From the UHGV virus genome UHGV-0389734: 40,726 nt of DNA. One strand, 5' to 3'. Every line of letters begins with the position of its first letter. The stretch's first letter is position 1. The position numbers were made by a program, and so were the translations under genes. The notes under the pieces are model-generated. The model was given only the letters and a program-made list of their open reading frames with translations. It did not search any database and was not told where the DNA came from. Below, piece by piece: positions 1-40,726 of the stretch. Origin of the DNA: a virus.

Positions 1-425
1 TTCGATATTCTCTTGTCAGATACTTCGTTCAGTCCGATCCGCACGGTACGTTCCGGATCAAAGGCAGTTACATATTCCTCAAAGCTCATTGCTCTTTCAG
101 ATTTGTACGCACCCACATTCTCATTTAACAATTCGAAGCTTAAGGACCACGCTGTTGCGGTAACTGTAAATTCATCCTTTTCCACATGGACGATATTCAG
201 GTAGTAGTCTTTTCCGTTATATACAAAGGCTACTTTATTTCCTTCTACAATATACGCCGCATCCTCATGTTTGGAACTTACCGTAAATGTGTAAGTATTT
301 GCTGTCCCCTGCAGATATTCATGGAGTTCATCGTTCCAATAATGCATAGAGTTTCGATGGGTGTTATCCAAAAATGCAAGCACCCTGTCATGTGGATTCA
401 GTACGGCAATTCTGATTTCATTCAT
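1..425 (-). CDS. 5' part of tail-associated protein (Tal-like, distal tail/tip) gene; ORF runs off window start
   Basis: ATG at 425..423 preceded by GGAGG (about 10 nt spacing) and overlapping the Dit stop codon (ATGA). My translation stays open to position 1 (MNEIRIAVLNPHDRVLAFLDNTHRNSMHYWNDELHEYLQGTANTYTFTV...). Position after Dit and the N-terminal sequence style match siphovirus Tal proteins. Confidence 0.6.
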   Translation of the reverse strand, partial: MNEIRIAVLNPHDRVLAFLDNTHRNSMHYWNDELHEYLQGTANTYTFTVSSKHEDAAYIVEGNKVAFVYNGKDYYLNIVHVEKDEFTVTATAWSLSFELLNENVGAYKSERAMSFEEYVTAFDPERTVRIGLNEVSDKRIS

Positions 426-1957
426 TATAAATACGCCTCCCTTATTTTGGCTTTAATCGTTGGCGGAGGACTGCTAAATGCCGAGTAGGAGAACTGGATC
501 TCCGTCTCTCCCGGTGGTACCAGAAAATGCTTACTTCCTCGGATTTCATCTTCCATCCGTTTCATCCCGTTTACATAAACCGCTGTATCATTTCCATCGA
601 TATAGACCACATCTCCGGACTTATACCGATTCGGCACATCTCTGTATTTTTCCACGTTATCTTTGCGGAACCAGATTTTTTTAAGATAGTTATGCGTAAC
701 CAGCTGATTCCCGAGATTCCGGTCTCCCCACTGCCCAATCCATACCTGTATCTTCTCACACGCCATGTCTTTAATCTCCGGGATAGTAAAGTAATAATAC
801 TGACCGTACCAAAAAATCCGTAGCCGGTCACCCTCTTTTAAGAAATCGTTATGCCCGCCACCCATCTTTAAATTAAATGGGTTTCCCTCATAAGCTGTCG
901 GCTGGAAATCCAGTGTCTTGATCTTCTTGTTTTGTGGTGCAAACCAGTCCACATGTGCCGTATTACCAACAGAATCGCTTTTATTTATGGACATAGAGCA
1001 GATCACTTCATTTTTTCCTGTAAGAAACGCAATGGTCTGCGCTCCTGTCTGTCCCATCAATCCAGCCTCGAACCAGTGCTGGGTATAGCAGTAAAAGTTC
1101 TTAGCCCCGCGGCTACCCTCGCTATCTGCAGGCAGGATCATGGTTTTCATTCCACCATTCCAGCTCCCCGTTGTGGCCTGCCCACCCTTTAAAGCCATTA
1201 CGCTGTATCCGGCAACGTCCCGCACTTCCAACGTTCCTTGTGTTGTGTTTTCCGGATTCTGATAGGATGTACCGTGATCATCTTGAAACAGGCTATACCC
1301 CTCCGACAATATCTCTGACGCCTTATAGTCTTCGCCATCTGCTTCTTCGATCTTGCCGAGTTGTATTGCACCGTATTTACTGGCAATCCCGATAAATCCA
1401 TTTTCATGGTTGTGAGTGATATCGTAGCTTACCGGAACGGATTCTGTACCACCGTTTACAATAGTAAGCGTCTGATATCCGCTTTCCTGATGGGCAGTAA
1501 ACGATTTTTCCGCTGCAGAATATTTCCGTGGATCACAACAATAAAAAGTAAATTCGCCTTTTACGTTCAATCTGCCTGGCTCCACATCTCCGACACTTGA
1601 TTTCGTTCCGATAAAATATTTATCCGGTTCATCTGCGAAAATCAGCTTTGCCTGTTCCTTATTTAAGATTCCAGAGAGTTTGTTGAATTTTTCCTGAAAC
1701 TCTCTCGGAGATGTACAAAGCAACTGGTACCCAACTGTAATGCTTCTGGTTGTATCTCGCTTACTCACGTACTCGGAACCATCCACAAGATCAATTTCTC
1801 TCTCCGAAATTTCTGATCCCAAAAGCTCACGACCGGTCACGTACAGAGTCCGATATCCATCAATTAGATTTTCAATATATGTCCCATCAATCTGTAGAGC
1901 CTCACTCGGCAGGGAGCTTTTACTCCCCGCTTGATTTGTATCCACAAACTCATACAT
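425..1957 (-). CDS. distal tail protein (Dit-like phage tail family protein), 510 aa
   Basis: Long minus-strand ORF immediately after the tape measure gene with overlapping start. Position and size fit a Dit with an insertion domain. Confidence 0.6.
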   Translation of the reverse strand: MYEFVDTNQAGSKSSLPSEALQIDGTYIENLIDGYRTLYVTGRELLGSEISEREIDLVDGSEYVSKRDTTRSITVGYQLLCTSPREFQEKFNKLSGILNKEQAKLIFADEPDKYFIGTKSSVGDVEPGRLNVKGEFTFYCCDPRKYSAAEKSFTAHQESGYQTLTIVNGGTESVPVSYDITHNHENGFIGIASKYGAIQLGKIEEADGEDYKASEILSEGYSLFQDDHGTSYQNPENTTQGTLEVRDVAGYSVMALKGGQATTGSWNGGMKTMILPADSEGSRGAKNFYCYTQHWFEAGLMGQTGAQTIAFLTGKNEVICSMSINKSDSVGNTAHVDWFAPQNKKIKTLDFQPTAYEGNPFNLKMGGGHNDFLKEGDRLRIFWYGQYYYFTIPEIKDMACEKIQVWIGQWGDRNLGNQLVTHNYLKKIWFRKDNVEKYRDVPNRYKSGDVVYIDGNDTAVYVNGMKRMEDEIRGSKHFLVPPGETEIQFSYSAFSSPPPTIKAKIREAYL

Positions 1958-4900
1958 GGCTTCTTTCTCCTTTCAGTCTCATCTTCATACTCTCACGTCT
2001 TTCCAGATCTTTCTGTGTAAATTCTGCCGTAACACGCGCTGCTTCTCTGCCGTTATATTCAACCGGCACAACAATTGTGTATGTAGCATTCCGGTTATAG
2101 GAATAATCACCGGAAAGTTCAGGATCTCCGGCACCGGAAAACCGCATTCTCATATCTGTGGATAATGTTGGAATCTCCACAATGTTCTGCGTAGCTTCTG
2201 CAACCTTTCTGGACATCGACTCAATTCCAAGCGCAAATCCTTCGCCTACATAGACACCCAGCCCAGCAAATACTCTTGACGGACTATGGATTTTTGCTTT
2301 TGCCCTGACTGCAGCATCTGCAGCCGCAGCCATTTGCGCTGCAACTGATCTGATATATCCCAAGGTTGACGACATACCATTTGCGAAGCCTAACCCTATG
2401 TTGTATCCGCTACTGTATGCGCCGCTTGCACCGGAAGCCAGGGATGATAATACTGCAGATACAGTTTTGGTTGCGACTGCCTGTGTCGGCTGTAGTCCGT
2501 TCTGTACACCCTCTTTTGCACTGTCCCCAAGTTTCTGTCCAGAGTTTCTCGCTTTTCCTGCGCCGTTGTCAAATGCGCTTACAATAGATTTCACCGCACT
2601 TTTCGCCTTGTTACCAAGCGCATCTAGCCCATCATTTACAATGCTTACAGAATCTTTCATGCTGGTAATGGATTTCTGCGCTGTCTTTGCGTTCTTAGCA
2701 ATGGACTTCATGCTGGAATTTACCGCCAATAATGCTGCTGCCATTGCCAGTGTTCCTGCACTTCCCGCGAGCATCGCCGCACTGAACAACAGCAATCCCG
2801 TGGTAAGCGCAAGACAGCTTGTGCCAGCTGCTAATGCCCCAGCTGAAAATACTAACAACGCTGATCCAAGAGTCAAGACAATAGATGCACCAGTAGATCC
2901 GTTAGATGTCAAAGCTGGTAACGCAAGTACAAATATACTCAATGCTGCAACAGCTGCGATAGCAGATGCGGAAAACGCCATCATAGCCACAGACAGGACA
3001 AGAACTCCGGCACACAATACAAGAACCGCCGCAGATGCAACTAATAATCCAGTTCCTAATACTACTACCGCTGCGCTTACCACCAAAGCTCCTGCGCCAA
3101 ATACAGCAAGTGATGCACCTAGTGCTAAAAGTGAAACGGATACTTGCAATCCATGCTCGGAAATAACTGGGAATAATGTAGATAACAGTGATAAACCTGC
3201 ATAAGCCAATACAGAACCTGCTCCAATAAGACCAAGACCCGATGATACAAGAATAAGTGATACACCTAAAATCATTGCTCCCACTCCGGCAATCATTGCC
3301 ACTGATCCAAAAACAGCAAGGCTGCTAGCTAGTGCCACAAGACTAATTGCATTCTCAAGAGCATTCGCTGCTAACATAGGCAAACAAGAAGCTAATTTCA
3401 TCAACCCTTCTGCGGCTAACAAAGCGCCGGTTCCTAATAACATCATTCCTGCCCCGATAATTAACACGCCAGCTGCCACCACAAGTAATGATGCCGATAC
3501 CAAAGCAAGACCTGCTCCTACGACCATAAGTCCGGCGCCGAGAATAATACTTCCCGCTCCTGCGAGTGTTGCTCCTGCTGCAAAAGCCATCATCGCAAGA
3601 GATAATTGCAAGATTGCCGTAGCGCCCTCTGTGCCGTAAGCTGTCACAATCGGAAGTACCGCAGCTACCACTGCAAGCGCAGCTCCTGCCAGCAATGCTC
3701 CAACTCCAACCAGTAGTGCTGCCGCCCCAAATGCAACCAGTCCGATTGAAGCTGCTGTAAGAGCTGGTCCCACTGCTGCAGCTACAACCATTAAGGCACC
3801 GATTGCCACAATCAGGCCAAACATAACTCCGACAGCTAAAGGTCCTGCATTTGCTAAAGATATAGATGCAGTAGTTAATAACATCATTCCTGCTGCCGCC
3901 ACAAGGACTGCTGCGCCGAAAGCAAGCAAGCCGACAGCTCCTGCGGTCAATGCCGATCCTACCATTTTTGCAACAATCATAAGACCTGCGATTGCCGCTA
4001 CCATACCAACCATCACACCAATTGCAAGTGGTCCCGCACTGGCGAGATTGATCGCTGCGCTGGATAAGACATAAAAAGCGGCGCTCACCATCAATAAACT
4101 CACCCCAAAAGCAATCATCGCTTTTGACATTGCTGCAAGTTTTTTCGTTCCACCGGACATTGTAGATAGCATTTTCATCATTCCGAGCCCGAGACCTGCC
4201 ACAACTACTACAAGTCCTGCGAGTACACCCACCGCCAACGGACCTGAATCCGCCACTGCTTTTGCTCCTTGCGCAAGCAAAAAGAAACCACCACTAATCA
4301 AAGCAACTCCGGCACCCAACATCATGAATGCTTTAGCAGATGCAAGCATTTTCTTGGAACTTGTAGCACTACTTTTACCGACCGCTTCTTGCCCTTTGGA
4401 AATTCCAAACAATTTTCCGGCAATCGTACTAATCCCTGCGCCGGCAAGACCTGCAATCGCACTGGTGAATGCACCTACAAACGGGGCAACACTTTTTGCA
4501 ATCTTAAAGCCTTTATATGCCACGAAAAGCTGCGGGAGATTTGATATTACTTTCGCGATAATCTCGGAATGCTCCTCTAGGAATCCAGCAAAGCTTTTCA
4601 ATGCTCCGCTCGCAGAATCCATTGCACTGCTAAAAGAACTGATGCTTTCCGTGGAGCCAAACGCACCAGTAATCTTTCCGAGATCTTCTCCAATTGCGGA
4701 AAAAGCATCTCCAAAAGCGGTCTTCACTTCTAATGCTTCTGTTTTTAAAACATTCCAGTACCCGCTTGCTTTATCGAGAAATCCAGTTAATTTTCCTGCG
4801 ATTGCATCTCCATCAAGATCTCCAATTTTATTAATTATCCCGTCCAAAGATTTAATCGCTCGACCGGATAAAACATCAAATGACGGTGCCAGCTTATTGC

Positions 4901-5627
4901 TTACTGTTTCGGTCAGACCATCCATTGCCTGATCTACAGTCTTGTACTCTGTAGCAAGCTTCGTAAACGCGTCATTTGTGCCGACTTTTGCGATAGCATC
5001 AAAGAAATCTTCTGTCGCGATTTTTCCGTCCTGCACATTCTGCACCAGCTCCGTGGTAGTCATGCCCATTTCTTTTGCGACTGCCGATATACCTGCCGGA
5101 GTCTGCTCAATCATGAGTTTAAAGTCCGCCCAAGCAACCGTTGGTTTCGCTGCCATCTGTGTAGCCTGCTGGCTTAAAGTCTTCATTGCCTGTTTTGGAT
5201 TCTCAGCTGCCGCCGCAAGCCCTCCGAATCCCTTTACAAGCTTGTTCGTGCTTTTAATACCTACTGCACTCAACTGCGCATAAGTACTCGCCATATCAGA
5301 TGCGCTGTAAATAGTATCTTCTGCAAACTCTTGCAATTCCTTTTTTACAGATGCAATCTCGTCAGCGCCTTTGCCAACTATCGACATGTTTCCGTTAAAT
5401 GTTTTCCATGCAGCACTGGAAGAATTTAATTCCGACACCATACCGCCAATACTGGATGTGACAGCACCAAATGCCTTTTGTCCAATTCCGGCCATGATTC
5501 CAAATCCGATTCCACTTGTGAGCGTGTTTTTTAAATTGCTTACGGTACCCATTGCAGATTTGAAAGCAGACGTAAATCCTCTATCCTGCGCAGATAATAT
5601 TGCCTTTACGGAAAAACTTTCTGCCAT
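1950..5627 (-). CDS. tail tape measure protein, 1225 aa
   Basis: Very long ORF with an Ala/Gly/Leu-rich multi-transmembrane central region and a charged helical N-terminal part. Lies between the tail chaperone ORFs and Dit. Confidence 0.85.
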   Translation of the reverse strand: MAESFSVKAILSAQDRGFTSAFKSAMGTVSNLKNTLTSGIGFGIMAGIGQKAFGAVTSSIGGMVSELNSSSAAWKTFNGNMSIVGKGADEIASVKKELQEFAEDTIYSASDMASTYAQLSAVGIKSTNKLVKGFGGLAAAAENPKQAMKTLSQQATQMAAKPTVAWADFKLMIEQTPAGISAVAKEMGMTTTELVQNVQDGKIATEDFFDAIAKVGTNDAFTKLATEYKTVDQAMDGLTETVSNKLAPSFDVLSGRAIKSLDGIINKIGDLDGDAIAGKLTGFLDKASGYWNVLKTEALEVKTAFGDAFSAIGEDLGKITGAFGSTESISSFSSAMDSASGALKSFAGFLEEHSEIIAKVISNLPQLFVAYKGFKIAKSVAPFVGAFTSAIAGLAGAGISTIAGKLFGISKGQEAVGKSSATSSKKMLASAKAFMMLGAGVALISGGFFLLAQGAKAVADSGPLAVGVLAGLVVVVAGLGLGMMKMLSTMSGGTKKLAAMSKAMIAFGVSLLMVSAAFYVLSSAAINLASAGPLAIGVMVGMVAAIAGLMIVAKMVGSALTAGAVGLLAFGAAVLVAAAGMMLLTTASISLANAGPLAVGVMFGLIVAIGALMVVAAAVGPALTAASIGLVAFGAAALLVGVGALLAGAALAVVAAVLPIVTAYGTEGATAILQLSLAMMAFAAGATLAGAGSIILGAGLMVVGAGLALVSASLLVVAAGVLIIGAGMMLLGTGALLAAEGLMKLASCLPMLAANALENAISLVALASSLAVFGSVAMIAGVGAMILGVSLILVSSGLGLIGAGSVLAYAGLSLLSTLFPVISEHGLQVSVSLLALGASLAVFGAGALVVSAAVVVLGTGLLVASAAVLVLCAGVLVLSVAMMAFSASAIAAVAALSIFVLALPALTSNGSTGASIVLTLGSALLVFSAGALAAGTSCLALTTGLLLFSAAMLAGSAGTLAMAAALLAVNSSMKSIAKNAKTAQKSITSMKDSVSIVNDGLDALGNKAKSAVKSIVSAFDNGAGKARNSGQKLGDSAKEGVQNGLQPTQAVATKTVSAVLSSLASGASGAYSSGYNIGLGFANGMSSTLGYIRSVAAQMAAAADAAVRAKAKIHSPSRVFAGLGVYVGEGFALGIESMSRKVAEATQNIVEIPTLSTDMRMRFSGAGDPELSGDYSYNRNATYTIVVPVEYNGREAARVTAEFTQKDLERRESMKMRLKGERSHV

Positions 5628-5631: not shown

Positions 5632-5940
5632 TCACTCTCCTTTCATCATTCTGCCGATTATGTCTAATCTTTCATTTTTTTGCTTTCGGTTCCTCACGCA
5701 ATCTACTTCTTTTTCGTAATCAAAGAATTTTCTGAATCTCTGATACACTTGTTTTGTCTTATTCTTTCCGACCTTTTTCTCCGCTTTTACGGCAAGATTT
5801 AAAAACGCCTGCAGATGATTTCGATAGTCCTTATCTACTTCTCTCAACCGTACAGCTTCCATGAGTAAGGTGTATTCCGGAATTGTCAGCCTGTCCACTT
5901 CTTCGAAACTCTTAAATCCCAGATACCGAAAACAATTCAA
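5632..5940 (-). CDS. tail assembly chaperone, frameshift-extension ORF (T-like)
   Basis: ORF with no ATG and no Shine-Dalgarno (track start is TTG). It lies in the -1 frame relative to the upstream chaperone ORF and stays open across that ORF's 3' end. Confidence 0.5.
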   Translation of the reverse strand: MNCFRYLGFKSFEEVDRLTIPEYTLLMEAVRLREVDKDYRNHLQAFLNLAVKAEKKVGKNKTKQVYQRFRKFFDYEKEVDCVRNRKQKNERLDIIGRMMKGE

Positions 5941-5969
5941 AGCTGCTTCTTTGTAGTATTCTTCAAACC

Positions 5970-6380
5970 CTACATCATCAGCTCTCTTTTCCGCGCTTCT
6001 TCCTCTTCCACTCTCTGTTTCTCTTTCTCCACAGCATCCAGAAGTTCCTTCGTTGTCCTCTTCGTAGCATTCGCACTCTTTAAGAAACCCATTACTGTAT
6101 CTGTAAGTTCATCGATATCTGTATTCTCGTCATCGATATAACCATCGAGCAGATCTCTTGTTGCTCTTGGGTTCTGCCCTTTATTCGCAACGTCAAGAAT
6201 ATTCACAAGAGCTTCTGGATCCCCATCCATCAAATTCATAAGCGCGTACCGGAACCCTACATCTTTTTTAACTCCAGGTGCTCCATCTATCGGCACATTT
6301 GTCTGCTTGTTTATCTCTCTCAAAAATCCCATTCCAAAGTTAAACTGGTACACCTGTCCGTTAATTGTTAATTCCATCAT
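5970..6380 (-). CDS. tail assembly chaperone (G-like), 136 aa
   Basis: Between the major tail and tape measure genes. GGAGG RBS directly after the upstream terminator T-run. Confidence 0.6.
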   Translation of the reverse strand: MMELTINGQVYQFNFGMGFLREINKQTNVPIDGAPGVKKDVGFRYALMNLMDGDPEALVNILDVANKGQNPRATRDLLDGYIDDENTDIDELTDTVMGFLKSANATKRTTKELLDAVEKEKQRVEEEEARKRELMM

Positions 6381-6502: not shown

Positions 6503-7030
6503 TTATTCCCCCTCTTTCACGCTGTCCTTAAACACGTAATTCGCGATTTCCTGCTGCTGCGTTGTCACGGTTACATCTCCGCGTTTACCTGATCCGTTGA
6601 TGCCAAAAGTAAGGGATACTTCCACATTCTCATCTGCAGAAGACGTGACCTCAACTTCTGTGAGATATCCTTGGAAATACATTCCCTTAAATTTATTCGG
6701 ACCCGCTTCCGCTGCTTCTTCAAGGTTTACTTCCCAAATTTCAAGAAGTTTATCGGAATCCATAGCATCCTCAAGTTCTGTGATCAATTTATCGCCTTTT
6801 GCCAAAACCGCAGTGGCTGTAATTTCTGTCTCCGCAGCTCCTGGTGTACGGATTGTACCGTCTTTCGTTGCAGTAGAATCTGCATCCTTACTCTTGGTTC
6901 TTCCATTCTCCGTTGTAAACGCAAGATTCTTTGCTGCTTCCTGTTTCGCTTTTTCTGCAAGGCGGTACAAATATACAATTTTCTTGCCGGATACCGCCTC
7001 TGCAAATAACTGTAAACCTGTCTTAAACAT
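6503..7030 (-). CDS. major tail protein (TP901-1-like size, 175 aa) with N-terminal LQLFAE motif
   Basis: Position before the chaperone pair and the size fit. N-terminus MFKTGLQLFAEA shares the LQLFA motif with the scaffold and capsid proteins. Confidence 0.6.
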   Translation of the reverse strand: MFKTGLQLFAEAVSGKKIVYLYRLAEKAKQEAAKNLAFTTENGRTKSKDADSTATKDGTIRTPGAAETEITATAVLAKGDKLITELEDAMDSDKLLEIWEVNLEEAAEAGPNKFKGMYFQGYLTEVEVTSSADENVEVSLTFGINGSGKRGDVTVTTQQQEIANYVFKDSVKEGE

Positions 7031-7044
7031 GCTTTTTCTCCTCT

Positions 7045-7428
7045 CTAACTAAAACTAAATTCTATTTCTAGCAACCCATGTAAAAGAGGCTGCTTTGTTG
7101 TTGTGTCCGGTAAAATTCTTTGATTTACATTCCGGACATCCCATGCAAAATTTTCGGTATGATCCAGTCTTCTGCACACATTTTTAATCGCCAGCAGCAT
7201 TTTTGATACCGTTCCTCTCTGCCTAGGATTGTTGTGCCAGACATGAATTGTCTGATACACATTGCCAAACACAGCTGTTTTATTGGCATCGTCCGTCTGT
7301 TGGCTATCTGCAAGATAAACAAAAGGATACGGCGTACCATCCGGCGGTAAGAAGCCGTCATATACGTCATATCCTAATGCTTTGATCTCTGTAAGTAATT
7401 CTGTAAATAATTCTTGCTGTGGATCCAT
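7045..7428 (-). CDS. head-tail joining / tail completion protein
   Basis: Small ORF in the conserved connector gene block between the head and tail genes. Confidence 0.45.
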   Translation of the reverse strand: MDPQQELFTELLTEIKALGYDVYDGFLPPDGTPYPFVYLADSQQTDDANKTAVFGNVYQTIHVWHNNPRQRGTVSKMLLAIKNVCRRLDHTENFAWDVRNVNQRILPDTTTKQPLLHGLLEIEFSFS

Positions 7429-7431
7429 GTC

Positions 7432-7767
7432 TCACCTCACAAGCTTTTGTAAATCTTTTTCAAACTGCTTCTTCTGCTCCTCAAATGCGGGTTTTAAATA
7501 CGGCTGCGCTTCCATGAATCGTGTTCCGAGTTCCACATATGGAGCATACTCCGCAGTAGGTTCCACAGTCGCAGTCATCCCATTATCTGACAAATCAAGA
7601 CCTATACTCCGCTTCAAAGTCCCGGTATCAACCGGCGCATTTCTCTGTGATTTTGCTTGCATATCAGCTCCGTTTTTTCGGACAACTGTCTTAACTGCAT
7701 TCAGATCCATTCTTTTCTTCAAACCTTTATCCAGCTTTGCGATTCCCTTAAATTTAATTTCTGCCAC
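7432..7767 (-). CDS. HK97 gp10-like head-tail joining protein
   Basis: 111 aa, position in the connector block. N-terminus MAEIKFKGIAKLDKGLKK is typical of the gp10 family. Confidence 0.5.
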   Translation of the reverse strand: MAEIKFKGIAKLDKGLKKRMDLNAVKTVVRKNGADMQAKSQRNAPVDTGTLKRSIGLDLSDNGMTATVEPTAEYAPYVELGTRFMEAQPYLKPAFEEQKKQFEKDLQKLVR

Positions 7768-8068
7768 TTTGCACCTCCGATACTACAAACACATGCTTTG
7801 TCCGCAGTTTTCGTTCAAAATCCACTCTGTATAAGGCGTTTCCTATCCGGATACGATCAAACGGCTTTTTGTAATGCGTCTGCAATTGAATTGTAAGACT
7901 TCCTTGTTTAATGCTGCCATAAATCAGGTTCATCGTTTCTGTTCCGGTATCTGAAACGCTTCCGTACTTCTTCACTTCCGTCACGTGGTCATCTGCGTAA
8001 TCACCAGTATCTGGATTGTACGCTCCATGTTCTACCGTCTGAAAATATACAGCTTTATCATACCTCAT
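7754..8068 (-). CDS. head closure / head-tail adaptor protein
   Basis: 104 aa ORF in the connector block, overlapping its neighbours. Confidence 0.45.
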   Translation of the reverse strand: MRYDKAVYFQTVEHGAYNPDTGDYADDHVTEVKKYGSVSDTGTETMNLIYGSIKQGSLTIQLQTHYKKPFDRIRIGNALYRVDFERKLRTKHVFVVSEVQSGRN

Positions 8069-8391: not shown

Positions 8392-8405
8392 TCAATTTCA
8401 ACTCC

Positions 8406-9749: not shown

Positions 9750-9757
9750 ATTCTCCT

Positions 9758-10333: not shown

Positions 10334-10415
10334 TTTCTTTACCTCCTAAAAGTTTAATGACATTCTTCATGGTCCTTTCCCCTAGCTTTTTACGCCTTCA
10401 AGACTTGGGCGCGAA

Positions 10416-29017: not shown

Positions 29018-29018
29018 G

Positions 29019-29410: not shown

Positions 29411-29424
29411 TGTCTTTTTCCTCC

Positions 29425-29787: not shown

Positions 29788-29808
29788 TTTCCTTTTCCTC
29801 CTTTTCTC

Positions 29809-30570: not shown

Positions 30571-30580
30571 TGCTTCTCTC

Positions 30581-30993: not shown

Positions 30994-31011
30994 TTTGAAA
31001 GGAGTCTACAT

Positions 31012-31878: not shown

Positions 31879-31939
31879 TATAACCGCTATGGCGTTTATA
31901 TAAACTTAAGTGGTGTGAAGTACAAAAAAGGAGGAAAAT

Positions 31940-32995: not shown

Positions 32996-33044
32996 TATGA
33001 CTGCACTACAAAATAACGAGAAATACAGGAGAAAAGAGGAATTT

Positions 33045-33536
33045 ATGAAAAAGAAAATTGCAACCATGCTGTTGATTGGAACTATGGCGTTGTCCATGAC
33101 AGCGTGTGGCGGAGATAAAGAGCCAGAAAAAGAGAATGCTGCGAAAACAGAGGCTACGGAAAAAGAACCGGAAGTCGAAGTGACATATCAAAGCATTCTC
33201 GATGATTATACAAAGAAGATTGCTGACGCGACTCCGGGACTTGTGGAAGAATATAATAACGAAGCAGCTCCGATTGCCGGAGACTTAAATGCACTTGCTG
33301 AATTATCAAATAGCAAGGTTGAAAAACTGGCCGAGATTTCTAATCAGGGCGTTTCCGAAATGGCTACGCTAATGCAGAAGAATGGGGACGAGTACAGTGT
33401 TTACGAAGAATGGTCATTGAAATTAACTGACGTATACACCCAATACGCAAAGCAGATCACTGACGCATACACTTCTTCCGCTGCCGGCATGAGTACGGAA
33501 GACCTGATGAATTCTCTTGATTCTTTAGGACAATAA
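33045..33536 (+). CDS. lipoprotein (signal peptide plus lipobox), 163 aa
   Basis: ATG at 33045 with AGGAG RBS. MKKKIATMLLIGTMALSMTAC-GG is a signal peptide ending in a lipobox-like Cys. The mature part is acidic and helical. Confidence 0.55.
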   Translation: MKKKIATMLLIGTMALSMTACGGDKEPEKENAAKTEATEKEPEVEVTYQSILDDYTKKIADATPGLVEEYNNEAAPIAGDLNALAELSNSKVEKLAEISNQGVSEMATLMQKNGDEYSVYEEWSLKLTDVYTQYAKQITDAYTSSAAGMSTEDLMNSLDSLGQ

Positions 33537-33698
33537 AATACCGCCCCAGTGCTACCAACACTGAGACGGTCCACATACCCGAAGATATGCAATCTGAAGC
33601 CAAGAATATTGTATCATCTTCGGAGCAGCTACACAATCCAGAACATTCGTTCATGTGCTGGCTGTTATTTTTATACTAAAATTTAAGGAGATGATGAT

Positions 33699-34853
33699 AT
33701 GGCCAAAAGAAAAAAGCATCCTCGTTTGCCCAATGGTTACGGTCAGATACGCTTCCTTGGTAAGAATCGCCGCAATCCTTACGGCGTTTACCCGCCAGCT
33801 AAAGAAGAATACGAAAACGGGCAAATGAAGCCACAGAAAGCAATATGCTATGTTTCTGACTGGATGATCGGCTTTGCAGTTCTTACAGCATACAAAGCCG
33901 GCACCTATACTCCCGGCATGGAAAATGATATCCAGGTGGATGACAAAAAGAATGCGGAGGATTTTATCCAGTCTCTGCTTGCAAATTATAATCAGGTGCA
34001 AGGAATTAAAGCAAAGGAAGAGCCGCAATTAACATTTGCGGAAGTATTTCGTAAATTCAACGTCAAGAAGTTTGGACATGAATACGATGCAAAAAAAGTA
34101 AAACGTACCAGCTTGGAATATACGCTACGCGCAGGATTCAAGAACTCTGCTGCCCTACACAACAGAATTTTCGCAGAGCTTGTTACAGACGATCTGCAGG
34201 AAGTAATGGACGCTTGTCCACTCAGACACGCCAGTATAGAACACATCAAAAATCTATACTACCACATGTACAAGTATGCTATGGCAAATAACCTGTGTAC
34301 AAAAGATTATTCGTCCTATGTCGAAATCACGCAAGATGATGATGATGAACACGGAATTCCATTTACTGATGAAGATTTGAAGAAATTGTGGGAAACAAAA
34401 GAAAATGAAGCGTCTGAGATGATCTTGATCATGTGCTACTCCGGCTTTCGGATATCGGAATATAAGACTTTAGAAGTGAATTTGAAAGAACGTTATTTTT
34501 TCGGTGGAATAAAAACAGATGCTGGGAAAAATAGAACCGTTCCTATTTATTCGGGTATTTTTGACCTTGTGAAACACCGGATGAAAACACATGGAGCGCT
34601 CCTGCCTGACAAAATCGATATATTCCGGGACAAGATGTATACTCAACTGTCCACACTTGGAATTGAAAAGCATACTCCGCATGATTGCCGGCACACATTT
34701 TCAAAATTGTGCGAAAAATATAAAGTCGCGGAGAATGATCGAAAAAGAATGCTTGGACATAAGATAGGTGATATCACGAATGACACCTATGGCCACCGAA
34801 CACTGGAAGATTTAAGAAAAGAGATTGAAAAAATAGAAATGGATTTGTTGTAA
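33699..34853 (+). CDS. int: tyrosine site-specific integrase, 384 aa
   Basis: AAGGAG RBS. C-terminal catalytic HDCRHTFSKL ... LGH ... Y signature. Confidence 0.8.
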   Translation: MAKRKKHPRLPNGYGQIRFLGKNRRNPYGVYPPAKEEYENGQMKPQKAICYVSDWMIGFAVLTAYKAGTYTPGMENDIQVDDKKNAEDFIQSLLANYNQVQGIKAKEEPQLTFAEVFRKFNVKKFGHEYDAKKVKRTSLEYTLRAGFKNSAALHNRIFAELVTDDLQEVMDACPLRHASIEHIKNLYYHMYKYAMANNLCTKDYSSYVEITQDDDDEHGIPFTDEDLKKLWETKENEASEMILIMCYSGFRISEYKTLEVNLKERYFFGGIKTDAGKNRTVPIYSGIFDLVKHRMKTHGALLPDKIDIFRDKMYTQLSTLGIEKHTPHDCRHTFSKLCEKYKVAENDRKRMLGHKIGDITNDTYGHRTLEDLRKEIEKIEMDLL

Positions 34854-35135
34854 GTGTGTTGTAAACGGTTCGATTATTCTACTCAAAAATCATTTCTTTC
34901 AGATTGCATTTTATGCGCCAGAAAGCCCGTGGTTGACACGTTTTTTGAAGTTTTTGTGTCAACCACAGGAATCTTTGAAAATCCTTAAACATTAGGAAAT
35001 CTTAAAGTTTCTGAACGGTTTTACGGGCTTTGTCGGCATTTTTGTTGTAAGTGTGTTGTAAATAGAATGTTTTTATTCAATAAGATTGATACAATATTCA
35101 TCCCCTCAGAGAGCTGATCTCCGAGGGGATTTTTA
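34844..35135. other. attP-like region between the int and endolysin genes
   Basis: Perfect 22-bp direct repeat TTTGTTGTAAGTGTGTTGTAAA at 34844-34865 and 35041-35062. 11-bp inverted repeat GTGGTTGACAC/GTGTCAACCAC at 34929-34939 and 34956-34966. 9-bp inverted repeat AAAGCCCGT/ACGGGCTTT. Confidence 0.5.
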
Positions 35136-35136
35136 T
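35101..35136. terminator. hairpin plus T-run terminator between the endolysin and int transcription units (bidirectional-looking)
   Basis: CCCCTCAGAG-agctgat-CTCCGAGGGG followed by ATTTTTATT on the plus strand; A-run on the other side. Confidence 0.5.
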
Positions 35137-35942
35137 TAAATAGATGTGGTCTCTTTACTGTAAATTACCGACATGAGCCTTGCATACCATGGCGCTTTAG
35201 GACTCCACTTGTAACACGGAATGTCCTTACCATTGTTGTCCTTGTAAATCTTCTGGATGATTTTTAATTCGTCTGGATGACCCAATGTTATTACTTTTTG
35301 ACCGTCAAAATAATACACTGCACCTTTTCCCTCTACTGTAAATAAACATTTCATCTCTTCTTCTCCTTCCTGTTCGATTCCTGTATTCTGGTTATTTTTT
35401 TGTTCGCTGCATGCAGACGCTCTACTGTCAATCGCCTTTGCAATCAGCTCCGCAATTCCTTTTGTACCTAAATTTCGATATCTGGCCACATCACCTGTGC
35501 CAGTGCAGAATAATGTCTCCACGATCATGCCAGGCATATTAGATACATTCAGATCATGGTATCCCGAACTGTACTTTACACCACGGTTAGCAAATCCTTT
35601 ATTTGCGAAATTCTGGCAGATATTGCTTGCGATCGTGTTCATTGTCTGGTTAGATGCATCGTATAACCACACCTCTGTACCGCCAGCTGATTCCGCTCCT
35701 GCCGCATTCATGTGCAAGGTGACATAGATATCGCACCCCGCACTATTCGCCTTATTTGTTCCGTCAGATAACTCGCTGGACACATTGGATGCATTGGAAT
35801 TACAATCAACCACAGTATGACCGACTGCCTGTAGCATTGGTACAAGCTCATTGTAGATCTTCCGTACTTCTGCCTGCTCATCGATCAGACCGATTGCACC
35901 TTTACAATTTGGGGAATGCCCTCCCCTTAAGCCAATTTTCAT
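35136..35942 (-). CDS. endolysin: N-acetylmuramoyl-L-alanine amidase (Amidase_3/CwlA-like) with C-terminal binding domain, 268 aa
   Basis: MKIGLRGGHSPNCKGAIGL ... DIYVTLHMNAAG is typical of Amidase_3. Lies downstream of the holin gene. Confidence 0.75.
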   Translation of the reverse strand: MKIGLRGGHSPNCKGAIGLIDEQAEVRKIYNELVPMLQAVGHTVVDCNSNASNVSSELSDGTNKANSAGCDIYVTLHMNAAGAESAGGTEVWLYDASNQTMNTIASNICQNFANKGFANRGVKYSSGYHDLNVSNMPGMIVETLFCTGTGDVARYRNLGTKGIAELIAKAIDSRASACSEQKNNQNTGIEQEGEEEMKCLFTVEGKGAVYYFDGQKVITLGHPDELKIIQKIYKDNNGKDIPCYKWSPKAPWYARLMSVIYSKETTSI

Positions 35943-36028
35943 TCTTTCTCTTCCTCCTGCTCTTCTGTTTCAAATGCTTTTTCCAGTTCCTCTGCGGATA
36001 CTCTGCCAAATTCGTTCTGTTCGCTCAT
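35940..36028 (-). CDS. 29-aa acidic micro-ORF translationally coupled to the endolysin gene (speculative)
   Basis: GGAGG RBS 7 nt before ATG. My translation MSEQNEFGRVSAEELEKAFETEEQEEEKE. Its stop overlaps the endolysin ATG (ATGA). Confidence 0.25.
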
Positions 36029-36071
36029 GTTCTCACCTCCTTGTGCGATGTCGCACAATAAAAGAGGACGA

Positions 36072-36524
36072 TTACTCGCCCTCCTGCTCCTGTGATTTAT
36101 TTGTTAAAACATCCAGTGCTTTTTTTAACGCTTCCGGATATTTCACGCCCATAATTCCAACATTTTCCAAAATCGAGATACCCTCATTTGCTATAAATGC
36201 CAGTACCACGGCTGTACGGATGTAGTCTACGCCGAGAGTAACATCCAGCCGATATGCAATAAGTACGATCAGTAGGGATACACCTTTTCTGCACAGACCT
36301 TTCCACGCAGAGTAACTACTTAGCGCACCGTTCTCCGATTTGTTGCTCTTTTTCCAGAAGGCAGCGATCAGCAATCCAAGAACAAAGTCTACACCCATAA
36401 AAATAAGTAATGTAGTCAAGTCCTCGGACCATCCTCCGATCAGATTTACGAAACCTCCTGCAATAGCTCCGAATACCATGCATAAAAACGCTTTTACATT
36501 TGCCAACTGCTCCATTTTCTTCAT
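36072..36524 (-). CDS. holin, 150 aa
   Basis: Three to four transmembrane helices and a charged C-terminus. Immediately upstream of the endolysin gene. Confidence 0.65.
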   Translation of the reverse strand: MKKMEQLANVKAFLCMVFGAIAGGFVNLIGGWSEDLTTLLIFMGVDFVLGLLIAAFWKKSNKSENGALSSYSAWKGLCRKGVSLLIVLIAYRLDVTLGVDYIRTAVVLAFIANEGISILENVGIMGVKYPEALKKALDVLTNKSQEQEGE

Positions 36525-36606
36525 ATCCTCACTTTCCTTTCTGTTTTTAAAGTATAAAAATAAGACCGTGAGGGTCTTGCTCTTATCTCCATATTTGCTC
36601 CTTTAA

Positions 36607-39600
36607 TCAATCATCTGTAATCCACGTGAACGTTGCGTGACGTTCTGTCCATGCGGCATTCTCCACATAAATCTTGATCCCCCCATCTTTTCCTATGCCG
36701 TATCTTCCCGTTCCAAATATGTTAGGTCCTGAAACTTCACTATAGGGAGCAAAGAAATCCATAACCGGTCGATATCCTACTGGAATTTTCACTTCGTTGA
36801 ATGGCCCGTATTCGCCACTTCCCGGAAATTGTGCAATCATTGTGATCTTGCATGTTACCATACATCCTCTTCTTTTTAGTTCTATACGGATGTTATTAGC
36901 GGAGTTTGCACTTGTATATGGACCTTTCACGGTACCGGAATCGTAAGAGATAGATTTTGTAAGCTGCTTAATTGTCCTAATAAGCCATATGCTATCTCCA
37001 TTTATGTTTGTCACCGAAAAGTCACGCATCTCCTCATCTCCGCGAATAGAGCATACCATAGATCCATTCGCGATATCATCTGCCATGCTACTGCCGCCGG
37101 AATAAAATTCTAATCCAGAGTAGTTTAATCGACTCCCCCAGTACCTAGACGCTGTAAACGATCTTACCATGTCAATATTCTCTTTTTTTACAAAAACGGA
37201 AATTGTACCGTCACTGCTTTTAGACACGATCTCTCCGGTGTCTACATTTATGTAAAAGTGTCCACCCTTACTCTTAATAAGTCCGGCTGTTACAGTTCCA
37301 AGGTTGGCAACGATCGCACTGAGCGTTTGCACGTCCAGATTCTCGACTGCGATATAATGGATCACCCACCTACTTCCATCCCACCGCTTGATCGGCTGAC
37401 CGGATGCTGTCTGCCATAACTGGCCAACTTTAGGATTTGACGGAGCCGTAGAAGATACAATTATGCCACTTGGTCCTGTTGCTCCTGTAGCACCGGTCGC
37501 TCCCTTATCACCATATGCTCCGATGATACATGGTGCTGATTGATACGTGCTACCATTTGTATAGGTAACAACTTCATAATTCCACAGATATTTTTTTGAC
37601 GCCGTTATTGCTTGTACAGTTGTAGTCCATCCTGATGTGGACGCCGACACACCGCTTCCGCTTGCCGTTGCAAGATAATAATTCGTGATAGACTTTATTC
37701 CGTTTCCAGTTACCCCTTGTGGTCCCGTTGCACCAGTTGCCCCCTGCGGTCCTTTCGGGCCAGTCGCTCCTTGTGGCCCCTGGGGACCTGTTGCACCTGC
37801 ATTCCCTTGAGGTCCTTGTGGACCGGTAGCTCCTGTTGCTCCTTTGTCTCCGTATATCCCGATTATTTTTGGTGTAGTGGTCGCTGTCGTATTATCTGTA
37901 AACGTAAATTTTTCATAGTTCCACAAGTATTTATTTGTTGCTGTCATCGTCGGAACTGATGTACTCCAACCGCTTGACGCTGTTGTAATTCCTATTTTTG
38001 CGGAAGAAATCAAATAATATTCTGTAATAGTTTTTATCCCTCTTCCTGATGTCCCCGCCGGCCCTTGTGGTCCATTATCACCTTGAGGTCCCGTTGCTCC
38101 CTGCGCGCCCTGTTTCGATTTCGAAACCGTAAACCGTCTTGTGATAGAATTTCCGTTGTATGTTACTTTAATGTCAACCCATCCGTTATCCGTAGATAGA
38201 GCGGATACCTTGTAAGTACGTGTACTTAAATCCCATGTACCAGCAATTCCGGAAGATTTTGTTACGGTGTAAGTAGCGACTTCTGAAACGTCCTGTGCGC
38301 CGTTGTAAACCTGCACTTTTGTAGAGCAATCTATAAAGTTTCCACCGTTTCCGTTTGTGTCTGTTGCTACTGTTTGGGAATCGTTGGACAATGTTACTAC
38401 TAAAGTTTCTATGTCCTCAGGAGCGGGAGACCAGTCTGTGGCTTTATTACCCTTTTCAAGTTTGATATTTCGAATTCTCCATTTTTTACCCACTTCATTA
38501 TTTGATAACATGAAATCTATTTTTCCATTTAAAGATGTAGATGGATATTTTAATTTCAATGAATATTTTGCAGGCGTTTTGTTAATTGTTTGATTTTGAT
38601 CTGGAGTACCAAAATCTGTTTCTAACACAGCAGTTTCAGCAACAGTGTCTACCAGATACGCTTCGTAACTCACTATGTATTCAACATTTTTTTCTGGTAT
38701 AAATTCTTGAACAAATCCAGACCATGTCCCACCAATCGTAACTTCACACCATCCATTAACCATCTGGAGAGATTTTGTATTACTACCTTTAATCCAATGG
38801 TTAAAAGTATTAAACCCTGTGTTTAATAGTAAATTCCTACCGCCAATCTCCAAATTATCCACATCCGTAAGCACAACAACACTCTGCGTATCCAAAGCAT
38901 TTATAGTCCCGTCTGCGCTGTAAAGCGTGCAACGGAGTATTTTCGCAGTTGCAGTCGGTGTATACTCCTTTGCACTTTCGTTCGCAGATGAGGTGTATTT
39001 CACGGAGTATGATGTTCCGTTGGTTGACTCTTCGATTTTAAATCTACCATTATATGGTATCCTTGTCGCACTGTCTCCATCTCGATAAAACGACCGGAAT
39101 GTTATTTTAGATGGTGTTAAAGCTCCGTCTGCACCTTTTTTAATAGCGGTATCGGACGCTTCCAGGATGTAGCTTCTTGAGTTTGTTCCGTCTTTTCCAT
39201 TTTCGCCTTTGATCTTTGTCCATGTATATTTCGTAGCATCTGTACTATCTGCCTGTGTATAATCTGTATACTGCCCGATATAGAGCTTATTTGTACCATC
39301 CGTGGTGGAAAATCCCGTCTTGCCATCTGCACTGTTTGCGTAGGCGATATGTAGATACGGGGTCTTTCCATCCGCTCCCGGCTTTCCGGGTGTTCCGTTT
39401 TCCCCGTTTGCGCCTTTGATCTTGCTCCATGCGTATTTTGTTGGGTCTGTGCTGTCGTTCGGAATAAAATCGACATACATTCCGATATATTCCCGATTAC
39501 TGTCAGAAACAGAAAAATCTTTAGACCCATCTGCGCTGTTTGCATAAGCAATGTGGGTGTACTGTGTTTTTCCGTCCTTCCCATCTTTTCCCGGGATTCC

Positions 39601-40726
39601 CTGATCCCCTTTTGGACCCTGTATACCATCCAATCCCGGAGCGCCTTGTGGACCCGGAGGTCCCTGTTCTCCTTTATCGCCTTTCTCGCCCTGAGGACCC
39701 TGTTCCCCGTCTTTTCCATCGGATACATCCGTAACCGTTACTTCTTCAAATCCCCTTAGGACTCCCTCTGTATCCCTTGCTTCAAATTTGTAGACCGCCT
39801 TGCTCTCCACATCCAAAGCTCGAACTTTTATGGCCCGACCGGCATAAATATGATTTCCATCCTTAAACCATCGAATTGTGAAATTGTCTGTCCGATCTAC
39901 CCCATTATCTATTACATTGGCAGTCAAGTTGGTAAAGCCTTCATTATTTTTAAATACAATTCCGTTATCCGTAGAGATACTGCTGGTGTAAATCTTTGTT
40001 TTGTTAATCAGATCCTCTACTTTCTGCAGCAAATCTTCAGAGATTTCCGACTGTAGCTCTTTAAAATTGGTAAAGACTGTCTTGTTTGCTTGCGGATTCG
40101 TGAAACTGCGAACCTGCTCCGATACTCTTGCACTCAAGTATAAGGTAGGAACGTACTCCTCATCTTCGATCTCCACGGTATCTCCGATAGCGGTATCAAA
40201 GTATCCCGTCACATCATAAGTCACGACCGGTTCAGATGCTGTTCTCAAGTCCGATAGCGCCATACTGTACAGTTTGTCTTTGTTATCCGTATCGTAGGAT
40301 TTTGGCATAAAGATGTATCCATCTTCCTTGTTTATCAGGTTTGATGGAAATCTGTCCCTTGCCTGCGGCGCCCGGATATCTGGACCTTGTGTATAAAACT
40401 CTACTACGCCGTTCTCATCCAGCTCTTCTTTCTCAATTCCCTGTATAGTCAGTCCATCCTTTCCTGTTGGACGGATACCGGTGTACAGATTTTCGATACT
40501 GGATTCCTTCCGGATGCCGGTAACATTTTTCCCGTACCGCAGTTTGATATCTCCCCGGAACTCCCCAACTCCCGTGTTATTGTCTGAGTGTTCCCGATAC
40601 ACGTTCATTACAATTTCTTTCAGTGAATAATCATCATTTAACACAGTCTGGAACTCAATCTCCGCATCGAATACATTCGCCACGGAAAAAAGACGGGATA
40701 ACACTGTCGCATCACCCGTCCATTCG
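36607..40726 (-). CDS. tail-associated/tail fibre protein with collagen-like repeats; 3' 4.1 kb of the gene, N-terminus beyond window end
   Basis: Frame open upstream of the GTG at 40704 to the window end. Three Gly-X-Y tracts (e.g. [22 protein letters not shown]). Two internally duplicated modules ([12 protein letters not shown]... twice; [10 protein letters not shown].../[10 protein letters not shown]... twice). Followed by the holin and lysin genes. Confidence 0.7.

What the first reader, a model, noticed from the sequence alone, without database searches (positions are those of the whole stretch)
1..40726. Window behaves as a circularly permuted complete phage genome: the Tal gene is split across the ends in frame, and int and lysin are adjacent
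The gene order is: Tal-holin-lysin, then attP-like region and int, then lysogeny genes, early genes, packaging, head, tail and Dit, ending in the Tal 5' end. An integrated prophage would instead have int and lysis genes at opposite ends. The Tal 5' fragment runs off position 1 with two leftover nucleotides. Adding base 40726 gives a codon (AAC) that continues exactly in the frame of the Tal ORF at 36607-40726 (...[21 protein letters not shown]...). That is consistent with a junction at 40726/1 in a 40,726-bp circular or excised genome.
Basis: partly seen in the sequence, partly recalled or inferred. Interest (0 to 1): 0.55.

Follow-up and report, generated by a model that had tools for sequence, protein, structure and literature searches.

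The report
Complete circular gut phage genome

Summary
Observation confirmed and interpretation supported. Joining base 40726 to base 1 gives one 1,514-aa minus-strand ORF (425..1 + 40726..36607). It has a single terminal stop, and the other two frames are closed across the junction. The junction is seamless. An independent contig (Logan ERR8081807_276) is 100% identical over 12,968 bp that run through it and encodes the identical 1,514-aa protein. Nine further contigs align across it without gaps. Int (33699-34853, +) and endolysin (35136-35942, -) converge on an intact attP. I mapped its crossover core to GAAATCTTAAAG (34996-35007) from attR contigs (int + M. gnavus pnp side; one is 100% identical to window 23699-35007) and attL contigs (lysin + PAP2 side). 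The predicted empty attB occurs exactly in 40 gut metagenome contigs, where the two host flanks abut. All modules of a temperate siphovirus are present and no host DNA is. The nearest characterised relatives are the R. gnavus phages phiRgPS_6 and its kin, with the same synteny and a 95% identical integrase. Packaging genes are SPP1-like (Terminase_3 TerL, SPP1-type portal, Mu F), so headful packaging is inferred. The "Tal" has the hub fold of tail-associated lysins but no detectable lysin domain. This is a new member of a known kind, of low interest.

The parts
1..425 (-). 5' part of the tail-tip (Tal-type) gene: ATG at 425..423, codons 1-141 plus two bases of codon 142
   Evidence: PHROG matches start at residue 5-6; homologues start at their residue 1
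36607..40726 (-). 3' part of the same gene: third base of codon 142 through the stop. It has collagen-like G-X-Y runs and duplicated modules. The joined product is 1,514 aa.
   Evidence: identical to the 1,514-aa gene product called on L012
425..1957 (-). distal tail protein Dit (510 aa); its stop overlaps the Tal ATG
   Evidence: phrog_202 E 2.5e-107; Sipho_tail, SPP1_Dit
1950..5627 (-). tape measure protein (1,225 aa)
5632..6380 (-). tail assembly chaperone pair (136 aa and 102 aa), probably a G/GT frameshift pair
   Evidence: both halves hit phrog_441, at profile positions 1-124 and 129-219
6503..8735 (-). major tail protein, tail terminator, tail completion protein, minor head protein, head-tail adaptor, head-fibre-like protein
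8826..12768 (-). major head protein, scaffold, two small peptidase-like genes, Mu F-like minor head protein
12731..15912 (-). SPP1-type portal (451 aa), TerL with Terminase_3 + 3C (422 aa), TerS with Terminase_2 (193 aa)
15970..17746 (-). two low-GC cargo genes (246 aa DUF2971; 296 aa with a weak Abi_alpha hit)
17749..17822 (-). tRNA-Ile (anticodon TAT)
   Evidence: a tRNA-Ile is also annotated in phiRgPS_6
18191..30781 (-). early and middle genes: sigma-r4/RinA-like regulator, PAPS-reductase-like protein, replisome organiser, RusA, exonuclease, RecT, AAA ATPase, anti-repressor, Cro-like HTH
30961..33536 (+). lysogeny module: HTH repressor, M78 metalloprotease, HSDR_N/PD-(D/E)XK-like nuclease, 179-aa protein with a weak Sie-like hit
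33699..34853 (+). tyrosine integrase (384 aa), 95% identical to phiRgPS_6 gp19
34844..35062 (.). attP: a 22-bp perfect direct repeat TTTGTTGTAAGTGTGTTGTAAA in each arm (34844-34865 and 35041-35062), an inverted repeat at 34926-34969, and the crossover core
34996..35007 (.). att core GAAATCTTAAAG, the only stretch shared by attP, attL, attR and attB
35136..35942 (-). endolysin (Amidase_3, 268 aa)
36072..36524 (-). holin (Phage_holin_4_1, 150 aa)

Best explanation
The window is one full turn of the 40,726-bp genome of a temperate siphovirus of Mediterraneibacter (Ruminococcus) gnavus, in its non-integrated (attP) configuration. It is written linearly with an arbitrary break inside the tail-tip gene. 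Shown: the two ends are contiguous in nature and restore one 1,514-aa gene. The int-lysin spacer carries attP. The same phage DNA also occurs integrated, with the circle opened at the 12-bp core GAAATCTTAAAG, so that lysin and int become the two prophage ends beside the host PAP2 and pnp sides. Inferred: the tyrosine integrase recombines attP with the intergenic attB, and the 22-bp repeats, one in each arm, probably serve as arm-type binding sites. After induction the circle replicates and is packaged by an SPP1-like headful machinery. That would give circularly permuted, terminally redundant virion DNA, which assembles as a circle with no fixed ends. This is why the break point has no biological meaning.
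For: Single ORF with only one open frame across the junction. Homology runs continuously through residue 142. 100% identity over 12,968 bp across the junction in Logan ERR8081807_276, with an identical Tal product. Gap-free alignment of a 1,200-nt junction probe in contigs from nine other samples and in GenBank phage records. attR: L002 is 100.000% identical to window 23699-35007 and then switches to host DNA. attL: L013, L015 and L016 match the window from the lysin down to 34996 and then switch to host DNA. attL and attR contigs come from the same samples twice (ERZ27315510, SRR34992800). The host flank proteins are exact M. gnavus PNPase and PAP2 sequences. The reconstructed empty attB is found exactly in 40 gut metagenome contigs, with both flanks abutting. 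Module content is complete and there are no host genes. Synteny matches the circular 37.8-kb phage phiRgPS_6, whose experimentally mapped attP lies in the same alignment columns (PMC10072058). Packaging genes are Terminase_3 TerL, SPP1-type portal and Mu F.
Against: No reads are available, so the physical form (excised circle, concatemer, permuted virion DNA or tandem prophage) is not determined. The 100%-identical Logan contig could come from the same or a related sample as the window, though it is a different contig with different ends. Headful packaging rests on family resemblance only: the nearest solved TerL matches at E 3e-7, and no pac site was located. Binding of integrase to the 22-bp arm repeats is untested. 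Exact-match scans of GTDB representative genomes for attB or attR found nothing, so the host is named from flank proteins, not from a reference genome hit.
Confidence: 0.93

Rival explanations
1. The circle is an assembly collapse of two tandemly integrated prophage copies (attL-phage-attP-phage-attR), not of free phage DNA.
For: A tandem array regenerates attP between the copies and would assemble identically. Adjacent prophages do occur in M. gnavus chromosomes, for example a lysin abutting another element's serine recombinase in L034.
Against: No attL or attR branch was retrieved from sample ERR8081807, whose contig carries attP, although this was not searched exhaustively. The sequence conclusions (complete genome, intact Tal, real attP) would be the same either way.
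Confidence: 0.05
2. The ends of the window are real physical ends (cos or a fixed pac terminus) or a misassembly, and the in-frame join is coincidental.
For: An in-frame join alone has a chance probability of about 1 in 3.
Against: Contigs from ten independent samples and eight GenBank records are collinear and gap-free across the junction. The join lies inside a conserved protein block and inside a confidently folded hub domain (pLDDT above 90 around residue 142 in the 97%-identical proxy). Genome termini inside an essential tail gene are not known for this kind of phage (established knowledge).
Confidence: 0.01
3. The window is an integrated prophage cut out of a bacterial contig and rotated by an annotation pipeline.
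For: The same phage does occur integrated (L002).
Against: An integrated copy has attL and attR with host sequence on the far side of the core. The window instead has the P arm and the P' arm joined at a single core, identical to the contig L007. No host gene is present in the window.
Confidence: 0.01

Closest known systems
Ruminococcus gnavus temperate siphoviruses phiRgPS_6, phiRM10, phiRgIBDN1, phiRg519T2, phiRg507T2_2/_3 (Buttimer et al., Gut Microbes 2023, PMC10072058) and RG-TP1
   Same: Same host species. Same gene order: TerS-TerL-portal-head-tail-TMP-Dit-'tail fiber' of ~1,515 aa-holin (150 aa)-endolysin (268 aa)-attP-int (384 aa)-lysogeny-early genes-tRNA-Ile. The integrase is 95% identical. 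The attP arms are 93% identical, including both 22-bp repeats and the hairpin. Parts of the early region are 86-93% identical in DNA. The records are circular.
   Different: The window is 40.7 kb against 36.5-37.8 kb. The packaging and head module differs: Terminase_3 TerL of 422 aa with an SPP1-type portal here, against a 594-aa terminase annotated as bIL285-like there. Dit and Tal are only ~68% identical in DNA. The att core differs: GAAATCTTAAAG here, against the published 21-bp tcttaagcatttttaagattt, which is absent from all attB loci fetched.
Uncultured human faecal phage contigs MT835606.1 and MT836489.1 (GenBank, unannotated)
   Same: These are the closest database DNA. MT835606.1 is 93.6% identical over 51% of window 1-25000, with TerL 98.6% identical. 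MT836489.1 is 95.7% identical across the junction.
   Different: They are fragments of 25.5 and 10.1 kb, not complete genomes, and they are not identical.
Tal / tail hub proteins of Gram-positive siphoviruses (NF5 Tal 9m7n, 80alpha 6v8i chain AE, Listeria prophage gp18 3gs9, lactococcal p2 ORF16 2x53) and Mu gp44 / T4 gp27
   Same: Encoded directly after Dit. The N-terminal ~390 residues have the same fold: Foldseek E 4.5e-19 to 6e-10 on the model of P0087, which is 97% identical to the window protein over residues 1-485. The C-terminal extension is long and variable.
   Different: No peptidoglycan-hydrolase domain was detected. The C-terminus carries collagen-like repeats and duplicated modules resembling those of receptor-binding proteins. 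The Pfam Prophage_tail hit is below the curated cut-off (29.2 against 31.3 bits).
SPP1-like headful (pac) packaging systems
   Same: Terminase_2 TerS, Terminase_3 TerL, SPP1 Gp6-like portal (E 2e-104) and a Mu F / gp7-like minor head protein, in the SPP1 order.
   Different: No pac site, terminal redundancy or permutation was measured. The resemblance is by family only.

Membership tests
Complete circular (non-integrated) temperate phage genome | The two ends of the linear record are contiguous, with no missing or duplicated bases | tested here: met
   100% identity over 12,968 bp across the join; 0 gaps in 12 loci; no terminal repeat
Complete circular (non-integrated) temperate phage genome | Intact attP, with P arm, core and P' arm joined, next to int | tested here: met
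   The window matches attR contigs up to 35007 and attL contigs from 34996. The position matches the experimentally mapped attP of phiRgPS_6 (PMC10072058).
Complete circular (non-integrated) temperate phage genome | A matching attB exists unoccupied in the host, and attL/attR exist in lysogens | tested here: met
   The 29-mer attB is exact in 40 metagenome contigs with both flanks abutting. attL and attR occur in the same samples. Flank proteins are exact M. gnavus sequences.
Complete circular (non-integrated) temperate phage genome | All essential modules present and no host genes | tested here: met
   Lysogeny, replication/recombination, packaging, head, tail and lysis modules are all annotated
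Complete circular (non-integrated) temperate phage genome | Sequencing reads span the junction, with even coverage | not testable with these tools
   No reads available
Tal (tail-associated lysin) / gp27-like tail hub | gp27/gp44-like hub fold in the N-terminal ~380 aa | tested here: met
   The AF2 model of P0087 (97% identical over 1-485) has pLDDT above 90 over most of 1-480. The Foldseek top hit is NF5 Tal 9m7n_A at E 4.5e-19, followed by 6v8i_AE, 3gs9, 1wru and 2x53.
Tal (tail-associated lysin) / gp27-like tail hub | Gene directly downstream of Dit and upstream of the lysis cassette | tested here: met
   The Dit stop overlaps the Tal ATG at 425; the holin follows at 36524
Tal (tail-associated lysin) / gp27-like tail hub | A cell-wall-degrading (lysin) domain | tested here: not met
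   No peptidase, amidase or lysozyme family appears among the Pfam, PHROG or PDB sequence hits; only Collagen, weak Prophage_tail and BppU-like_C. The name 'Tal' therefore applies only structurally.
Tyrosine integrase with lambda-type attP | Phage_integrase catalytic domain | tested here: met
   PF00589 at 31.7 bits against a cut-off of 27.1, residues 224-367; phrog_1 E 5.8e-25
Tyrosine integrase with lambda-type attP | Short core identity shared by attP and attB | tested here: met
   12-bp GAAATCTTAAAG
Tyrosine integrase with lambda-type attP | Arm-type binding sites in the P and P' arms | tested here: inconclusive
   A 22-bp perfect direct repeat lies on each side of the core. None is expected by chance (mean 0.01), and both copies are conserved in phiRgPS_6. 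Binding was not tested.
Headful (pac) packaging, SPP1-like | Terminase_3-type TerL with SPP1-type portal and gp7/Mu F protein | tested here: met
   the nearest solved TerL is 4ife/4idh at E 3e-7
Headful (pac) packaging, SPP1-like | Terminally redundant, circularly permuted virion DNA | not testable with these tools
   Needs virion DNA reads or restriction mapping

The most novel reading that the evidence does not exclude
The integrase is 95% identical to that of phiRgPS_6 and the attP arms are 93% identical, yet the two phages differ almost only in the ~40 bp around the core and use different core sequences. This pair, and the many M. gnavus prophages carrying the identical integrase, could be a natural example of retargeting a tyrosine integrase to a new attB by swapping the core, with only a handful of Int substitutions (clustered at residues 184-196 and 288-304).
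Probability: 0.3. Interest if true: 0.35.

Novelty: new member of a known kind. Interest (0 to 1): 0.12.

Why it matters
The practical value is for annotation. The record should be treated as circular and complete. The tail-tip gene should be joined across the origin, not called as two truncated genes, and the genome could be re-originated at terS. The work also gives this phage a precisely mapped attP, attB, attL and attR and a confident host, M. gnavus, a species studied for its link with inflammatory bowel disease. It shows that the same phage occurs both integrated and free or replicating in human gut samples. None of this changes what is known about temperate phage biology.

Tried and rejected
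(1) Exact scans of the GTDB representative genomes found nothing, for the reconstructed attB 29-mer and for a shorter core-plus-right-flank 23-mer. The species representative presumably differs by a SNP. The host was named instead from exact flank proteins, and the empty attB was found in metagenomes.

I used P0087, which is 97% identical over residues 1-485, as a proxy.

(3) A sequence search of the PDB with the full Tal returned only collagen-repeat hits and the 80alpha upper fibre. The fold search was needed to reach Tal and hub structures.

(4) The consensus terminator and promoter scan of the attP region gave nothing above the shuffled background.

It is rejected: the tRNA is 17 kb from attP, and attB is intergenic and contains no tRNA.

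(6) I considered the 22-bp direct repeats as a duplicated att core (an attL/attR-like pair inside the window). This is rejected: the crossover maps between them, at 34996-35007, and both repeats stay with the phage arms in attL and attR.

(7) I looked for a slippery heptamer for the chaperone frameshift by eye and identified no convincing site.
Full report
**1. The observation**

Most genes lie on the minus strand. The minus-strand ATG at 425..423 overlaps the stop codon of the upstream 510-aa gene and opens a frame that runs off base 1 with two bases left over. The window's other end (36607..40726, minus strand) is an ORF open at its 5' side.

Joining 40726 to 1 gives 4,545 nt, which is 1,514 codons plus one stop. 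The junction codon is AAC (Asn142), in the context [14 protein letters not shown]. The other two frames across the join are closed by many stops, and there is no terminal direct repeat.

**2. The join is real**

Three kinds of evidence show that the join is real.

- **Profile homology.** PHROG families 588, 6468 and 6253 (tail fibre / minor tail) each match as a single stretch from residue ~5 to residues 481-616, straight through residue 142.
- **Homologous proteins.**
  - Hundreds of database proteins are 98-99% identical to residues 1-477 at 100% coverage. One of them is named 'phage tail protein [Mediterraneibacter gnavus]'.
  - That protein, P0087, aligns without gaps over residues 1-485.
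  - More than 1,000 clusters at 50% identity share the same ~485-aa N-terminal module starting at their residue 1, with total lengths from 559 to 1,964 aa.
  - The junction lies in one of the module's best conserved blocks.
- **Independent DNA.**
  - The Logan contig ERR8081807_276 is 100.000% identical to the window over 12,968 bp that run 31886..40726 and then 1..4127. The Tal gene called on it is 1,514 aa and identical to my joined ORF.
  - A 1,200-nt probe centred on the junction aligns full length with zero gaps in contigs from nine other samples at 94-96%.
  - A 1,354-nt probe does the same in GenBank MT836489.1 (95.7%) and in seven isolated R. gnavus phages (~68%), where it covers the 'tail protein' and 'tail fiber protein' genes.

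**3. What the genome is**

Read on the minus strand from the join, the gene order is as follows.

| Module | Genes |
|---|---|
| Lysis | Tal, holin (Phage_holin_4_1), endolysin (Amidase_3) |
| Integration | a 282-bp spacer, then a convergent tyrosine integrase |
| Lysogeny | 179-aa protein, HSDR_N-type nuclease-like protein, M78 protease, HTH repressor |
| Early genes | divergent Cro-like gene, anti-repressor, AAA ATPase, RecT, exonuclease, RusA, replisome organiser, PAPS-reductase-like protein, sigma-r4/RinA-like regulator |
| tRNA and cargo | tRNA-Ile(TAT), two low-GC cargo genes |
| Packaging and head | TerS, TerL, SPP1-type portal, Mu F-like protein, scaffold, major head protein |
| Connectors and tail | connectors, major tail protein, chaperone pair, tape measure, Dit |

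After Dit the order returns to Tal. There are no host genes.

The order matches the circular 37.8-kb Ruminococcus phage phiRgPS_6 gene for gene from the tape measure protein to the integrase. That phage has a 1,516-aa 'tail fiber', a 150-aa holin, a 268-aa endolysin, a 384-aa integrase and a tRNA-Ile.

**4. attP and the two forms of the phage**

Contigs that encode the identical integrase fall into two classes.

- **attP class.** L007 continues from int into lysin, holin, Tal, Dit and the tape measure, exactly like the window.
- **attR class.** Nine contigs match the window downstream of int and then switch, all at the same base, to host genes: a 57-aa ORF, pnp, rpsO, a fucosidase and an ABC transporter. 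Identity runs through 35007. L002 is 100.000% identical to window 23699-35007 and diverges immediately after, so it is this same phage integrated.

Contigs that encode the identical endolysin likewise include the attP form (L012) and three attL contigs. In the attL contigs, sequence downstream of the lysin matches the window down to 34996 and then switches to other host genes: PAP2 phosphatase, LPG synthase, CDP-alcohol phosphatidyltransferase and PS decarboxylase.

- **The core.** The only stretch shared by attL, attR and attP is GAAATCTTAAAG (34996-35007).
- **Same samples.** Both attL and attR contigs come from samples ERZ27315510 and SRR34992800.
- **Host.** The flanking PNPase and PAP2 proteins are exact matches to M. 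gnavus proteins.
- **Empty attB.**
  - I built the predicted empty site from the attL host side, the core and the attR host side: CTTTAAGAAATCTTAAAGATTAGAGAGCC.
  - It occurs exactly in 40 human-gut metagenome contigs.
  - In the eight I examined, the two 3-kb host flanks abut at the core at 99.4-99.8% identity.

The full set attP x attB -> attL + attR is therefore documented by sequence, and the window carries the attP configuration.

**5. Anatomy of attP**

A 22-bp perfect direct repeat, TTTGTTGTAAGTGTGTTGTAAA, lies once in each arm. The first copy (34844-34865) overlaps the int stop codon. The second (35041-35062) lies 34 bp to the right of the core. With up to three mismatches allowed the window holds only these two copies, against 0.01 expected by chance.

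A 14-bp inverted repeat sits in the P arm at 34926-34969.

Aligned with phiRgPS_6, the arms are 93% identical, including both repeats and the hairpin. Differences are concentrated in the ~40 columns around the core. The published, experimentally determined attP of phiRgPS_6 (tcttaagcatttttaagattt, 19654-19674) falls in the same columns as the core mapped here (PMC10072058). The integrases are 95% identical.

That the repeats are arm-type integrase sites is an inference.

**6. How it works (best explanation)**

Shown: the genome closes on itself, attP is intact, and integration opens the circle at the core, so that lysin and int become the prophage ends while Tal stays intact in both forms.

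Inferred: the integrase catalyses the exchange. After induction the genome is packaged by a headful mechanism. The basis is TerS Terminase_2, TerL Terminase_3 + 3C, an SPP1 Gp6-like portal (E 2e-104) and a Mu F / gp7-like protein. The nearest solved TerL is 4ife/4idh at E 3e-7; from my own knowledge this is the large terminase of the headful phage Sf6.

Headful virion DNA is circularly permuted and assembles as a circle with an arbitrary break. A break in the middle of a conserved domain of an essential gene has no biological meaning.

**7. Rivals**

- **Tandem prophage dimer.** This would give the same assembly and cannot be excluded without reads. It would not change the sequence conclusions.
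- **Real ends or a misjoin inside Tal.** Both are excluded.
- **A rotated integrated prophage.** This is excluded because both arms are joined at one core with no host sequence.
- **A caution.** int-lysin adjacency alone would not have been proof. In M. gnavus chromosomes a lysis cassette can abut the recombinase of a neighbouring element, for example in L034.

**8. Is it 'Tal'?**

The AF2 model of P0087 has a mean pLDDT of 83, and above 90 over most of residues 1-480. Foldseek against the PDB gives these hits:

- phage NF5 tail-associated lysin (9m7n_A, E 4.5e-19);
- the 80alpha baseplate chain 6v8i_AE;
- Listeria prophage gp18 (3gs9);
- Mu gp44 (1wru);
- lactococcal p2 (2x53);
- T4, VgrG and contractile-injection-system hubs.

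The fold and the position after Dit meet the definition of a siphovirus tail hub. No lysin domain was found: Pfam gives only Collagen, a sub-threshold Prophage_tail hit and a sub-threshold BppU-like_C hit. The C-terminal ~1,000 aa look like a modular, exchangeable receptor-binding extension. Homologues with an almost identical N-module are 663 or 789 aa long.

**9. Novelty and verdict**

No INPHARED record covers the genome. The best, MT835606.1, is 93.6% identical over 51% of the first 25 kb. The phage belongs to a very large mosaic family of M. gnavus prophages; its holin alone is listed in 3,075 blocks of the contig collection. Its closest isolated relatives were described in 2023 (PMC10072058), and a 2026 study adds 29 more R. 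gnavus phages and notes that Dit and tail-fibre genes are shared across clusters (PMC13435783).

It is a new member of a known kind. The finding is correct and useful for annotation but not surprising: interest 0.12.

The only mildly novel angle is the conserved integrase and arms paired with a different core. This may be a natural case of att-site retargeting.

Noticed in passing
window 5632-6380 (minus strand): The two tail assembly chaperone ORFs (136 aa and 102 aa) hit the same PHROG profile (phrog_441, 257 positions), at positions 1-124 and 129-219. This suggests the usual G/GT programmed frameshift product. I could not pick out a convincing slippery site by eye.
   Followed up: partly
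window 36607-39300 (Tal residues ~478-1240): The Tal C-terminal extension has four collagen-like G-X-Y runs and two pairs of tandemly duplicated modules ([12 protein letters not shown]... twice; GIK(T/S)IT(E/N)YYL... twice). Relatives with a 98-99% identical N-terminal 477 aa carry entirely different, shorter C-termini (663 or 789 aa), so the receptor-binding part appears to be swapped as a cassette. Several metagenome contigs end inside this gene, which suggests it often breaks assemblies.
   Followed up: partly
window 34985-35030 versus L001 (phiRgPS_6) 19640-19690: The integrase is 95% identical and the attP arms 93% identical to phiRgPS_6, but the core region differs and the published phiRgPS_6 core is absent from all attB loci fetched. 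The Int substitutions cluster at residues ~184-196 and 288-304. This may be att-site retargeting by core swap.
   Followed up: partly
window 15970-17746 (minus strand): Two genes lie between the tRNA-Ile and terS in the lowest-GC stretch of the genome (0.35): a 246-aa DUF2971 protein and a 296-aa protein with a weak, sub-threshold Abi_alpha hit. They sit where phiRgPS_6 carries different genes and may be moron or defence cargo.
   Followed up: no
window 31940-33536 (plus strand): The lysogeny module carries a 351-aa protein with a type I restriction HSDR_N / PD-(D/E)XK-like N-terminal domain (phrog_4225 'endonuclease', E 2.5e-146) and a 179-aa protein with a weak Sie-like hit. These are candidate prophage-encoded superinfection or defence functions, transcribed with the repressor.
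   Followed up: no
window 17749-17822 (minus strand); L002: The phage carries tRNA-Ile with anticodon TAT, and a tRNA-Ile is also annotated in phiRgPS_6. By coordinate arithmetic, the integrated-form contig behind L002 (68,121 bp) starts at about window position 17708, right beside this tRNA. The tRNA may therefore break assemblies as a repeat.
   Followed up: no
window 21333-22217 (minus strand): A PAPS-reductase-domain protein (PF01507, E 1.8e-22) lies among the early genes. In phages such proteins are often linked to DNA modification, but its role here is unknown.
   Followed up: no
L003 (ERZ28660620 scaffold_66) 1-11310: A different prophage (ERF/SSB/DnaG-primase early genes, HNH in place of the HSDR_N gene) carries the identical 384-aa integrase and the same attR. 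It shares only ~1.5 kb (99.7%) with the window at the int end. The int-attP cassette therefore moves between otherwise unrelated M. gnavus phages.
   Followed up: partly
L037 8720-9002: A contig with an empty attB at 1893-1921 has, 7 kb away, a 283-bp stretch 92.6% identical to the window's int 3' end and P arm (window ~34713-34995). A related int/att element may sit at a nearby second site in that strain.
   Followed up: no
L034 (GCA_964272075.1 chromosome) 6583-9174: In an M. gnavus chromosome a 268-aa Amidase_3 endolysin is followed directly by a convergent serine recombinase and a lysogeny module. So lysin-integrase adjacency can also arise inside chromosomes, from neighbouring elements or from phages with a serine integrase, and is not by itself proof of an excised form.
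   Followed up: no
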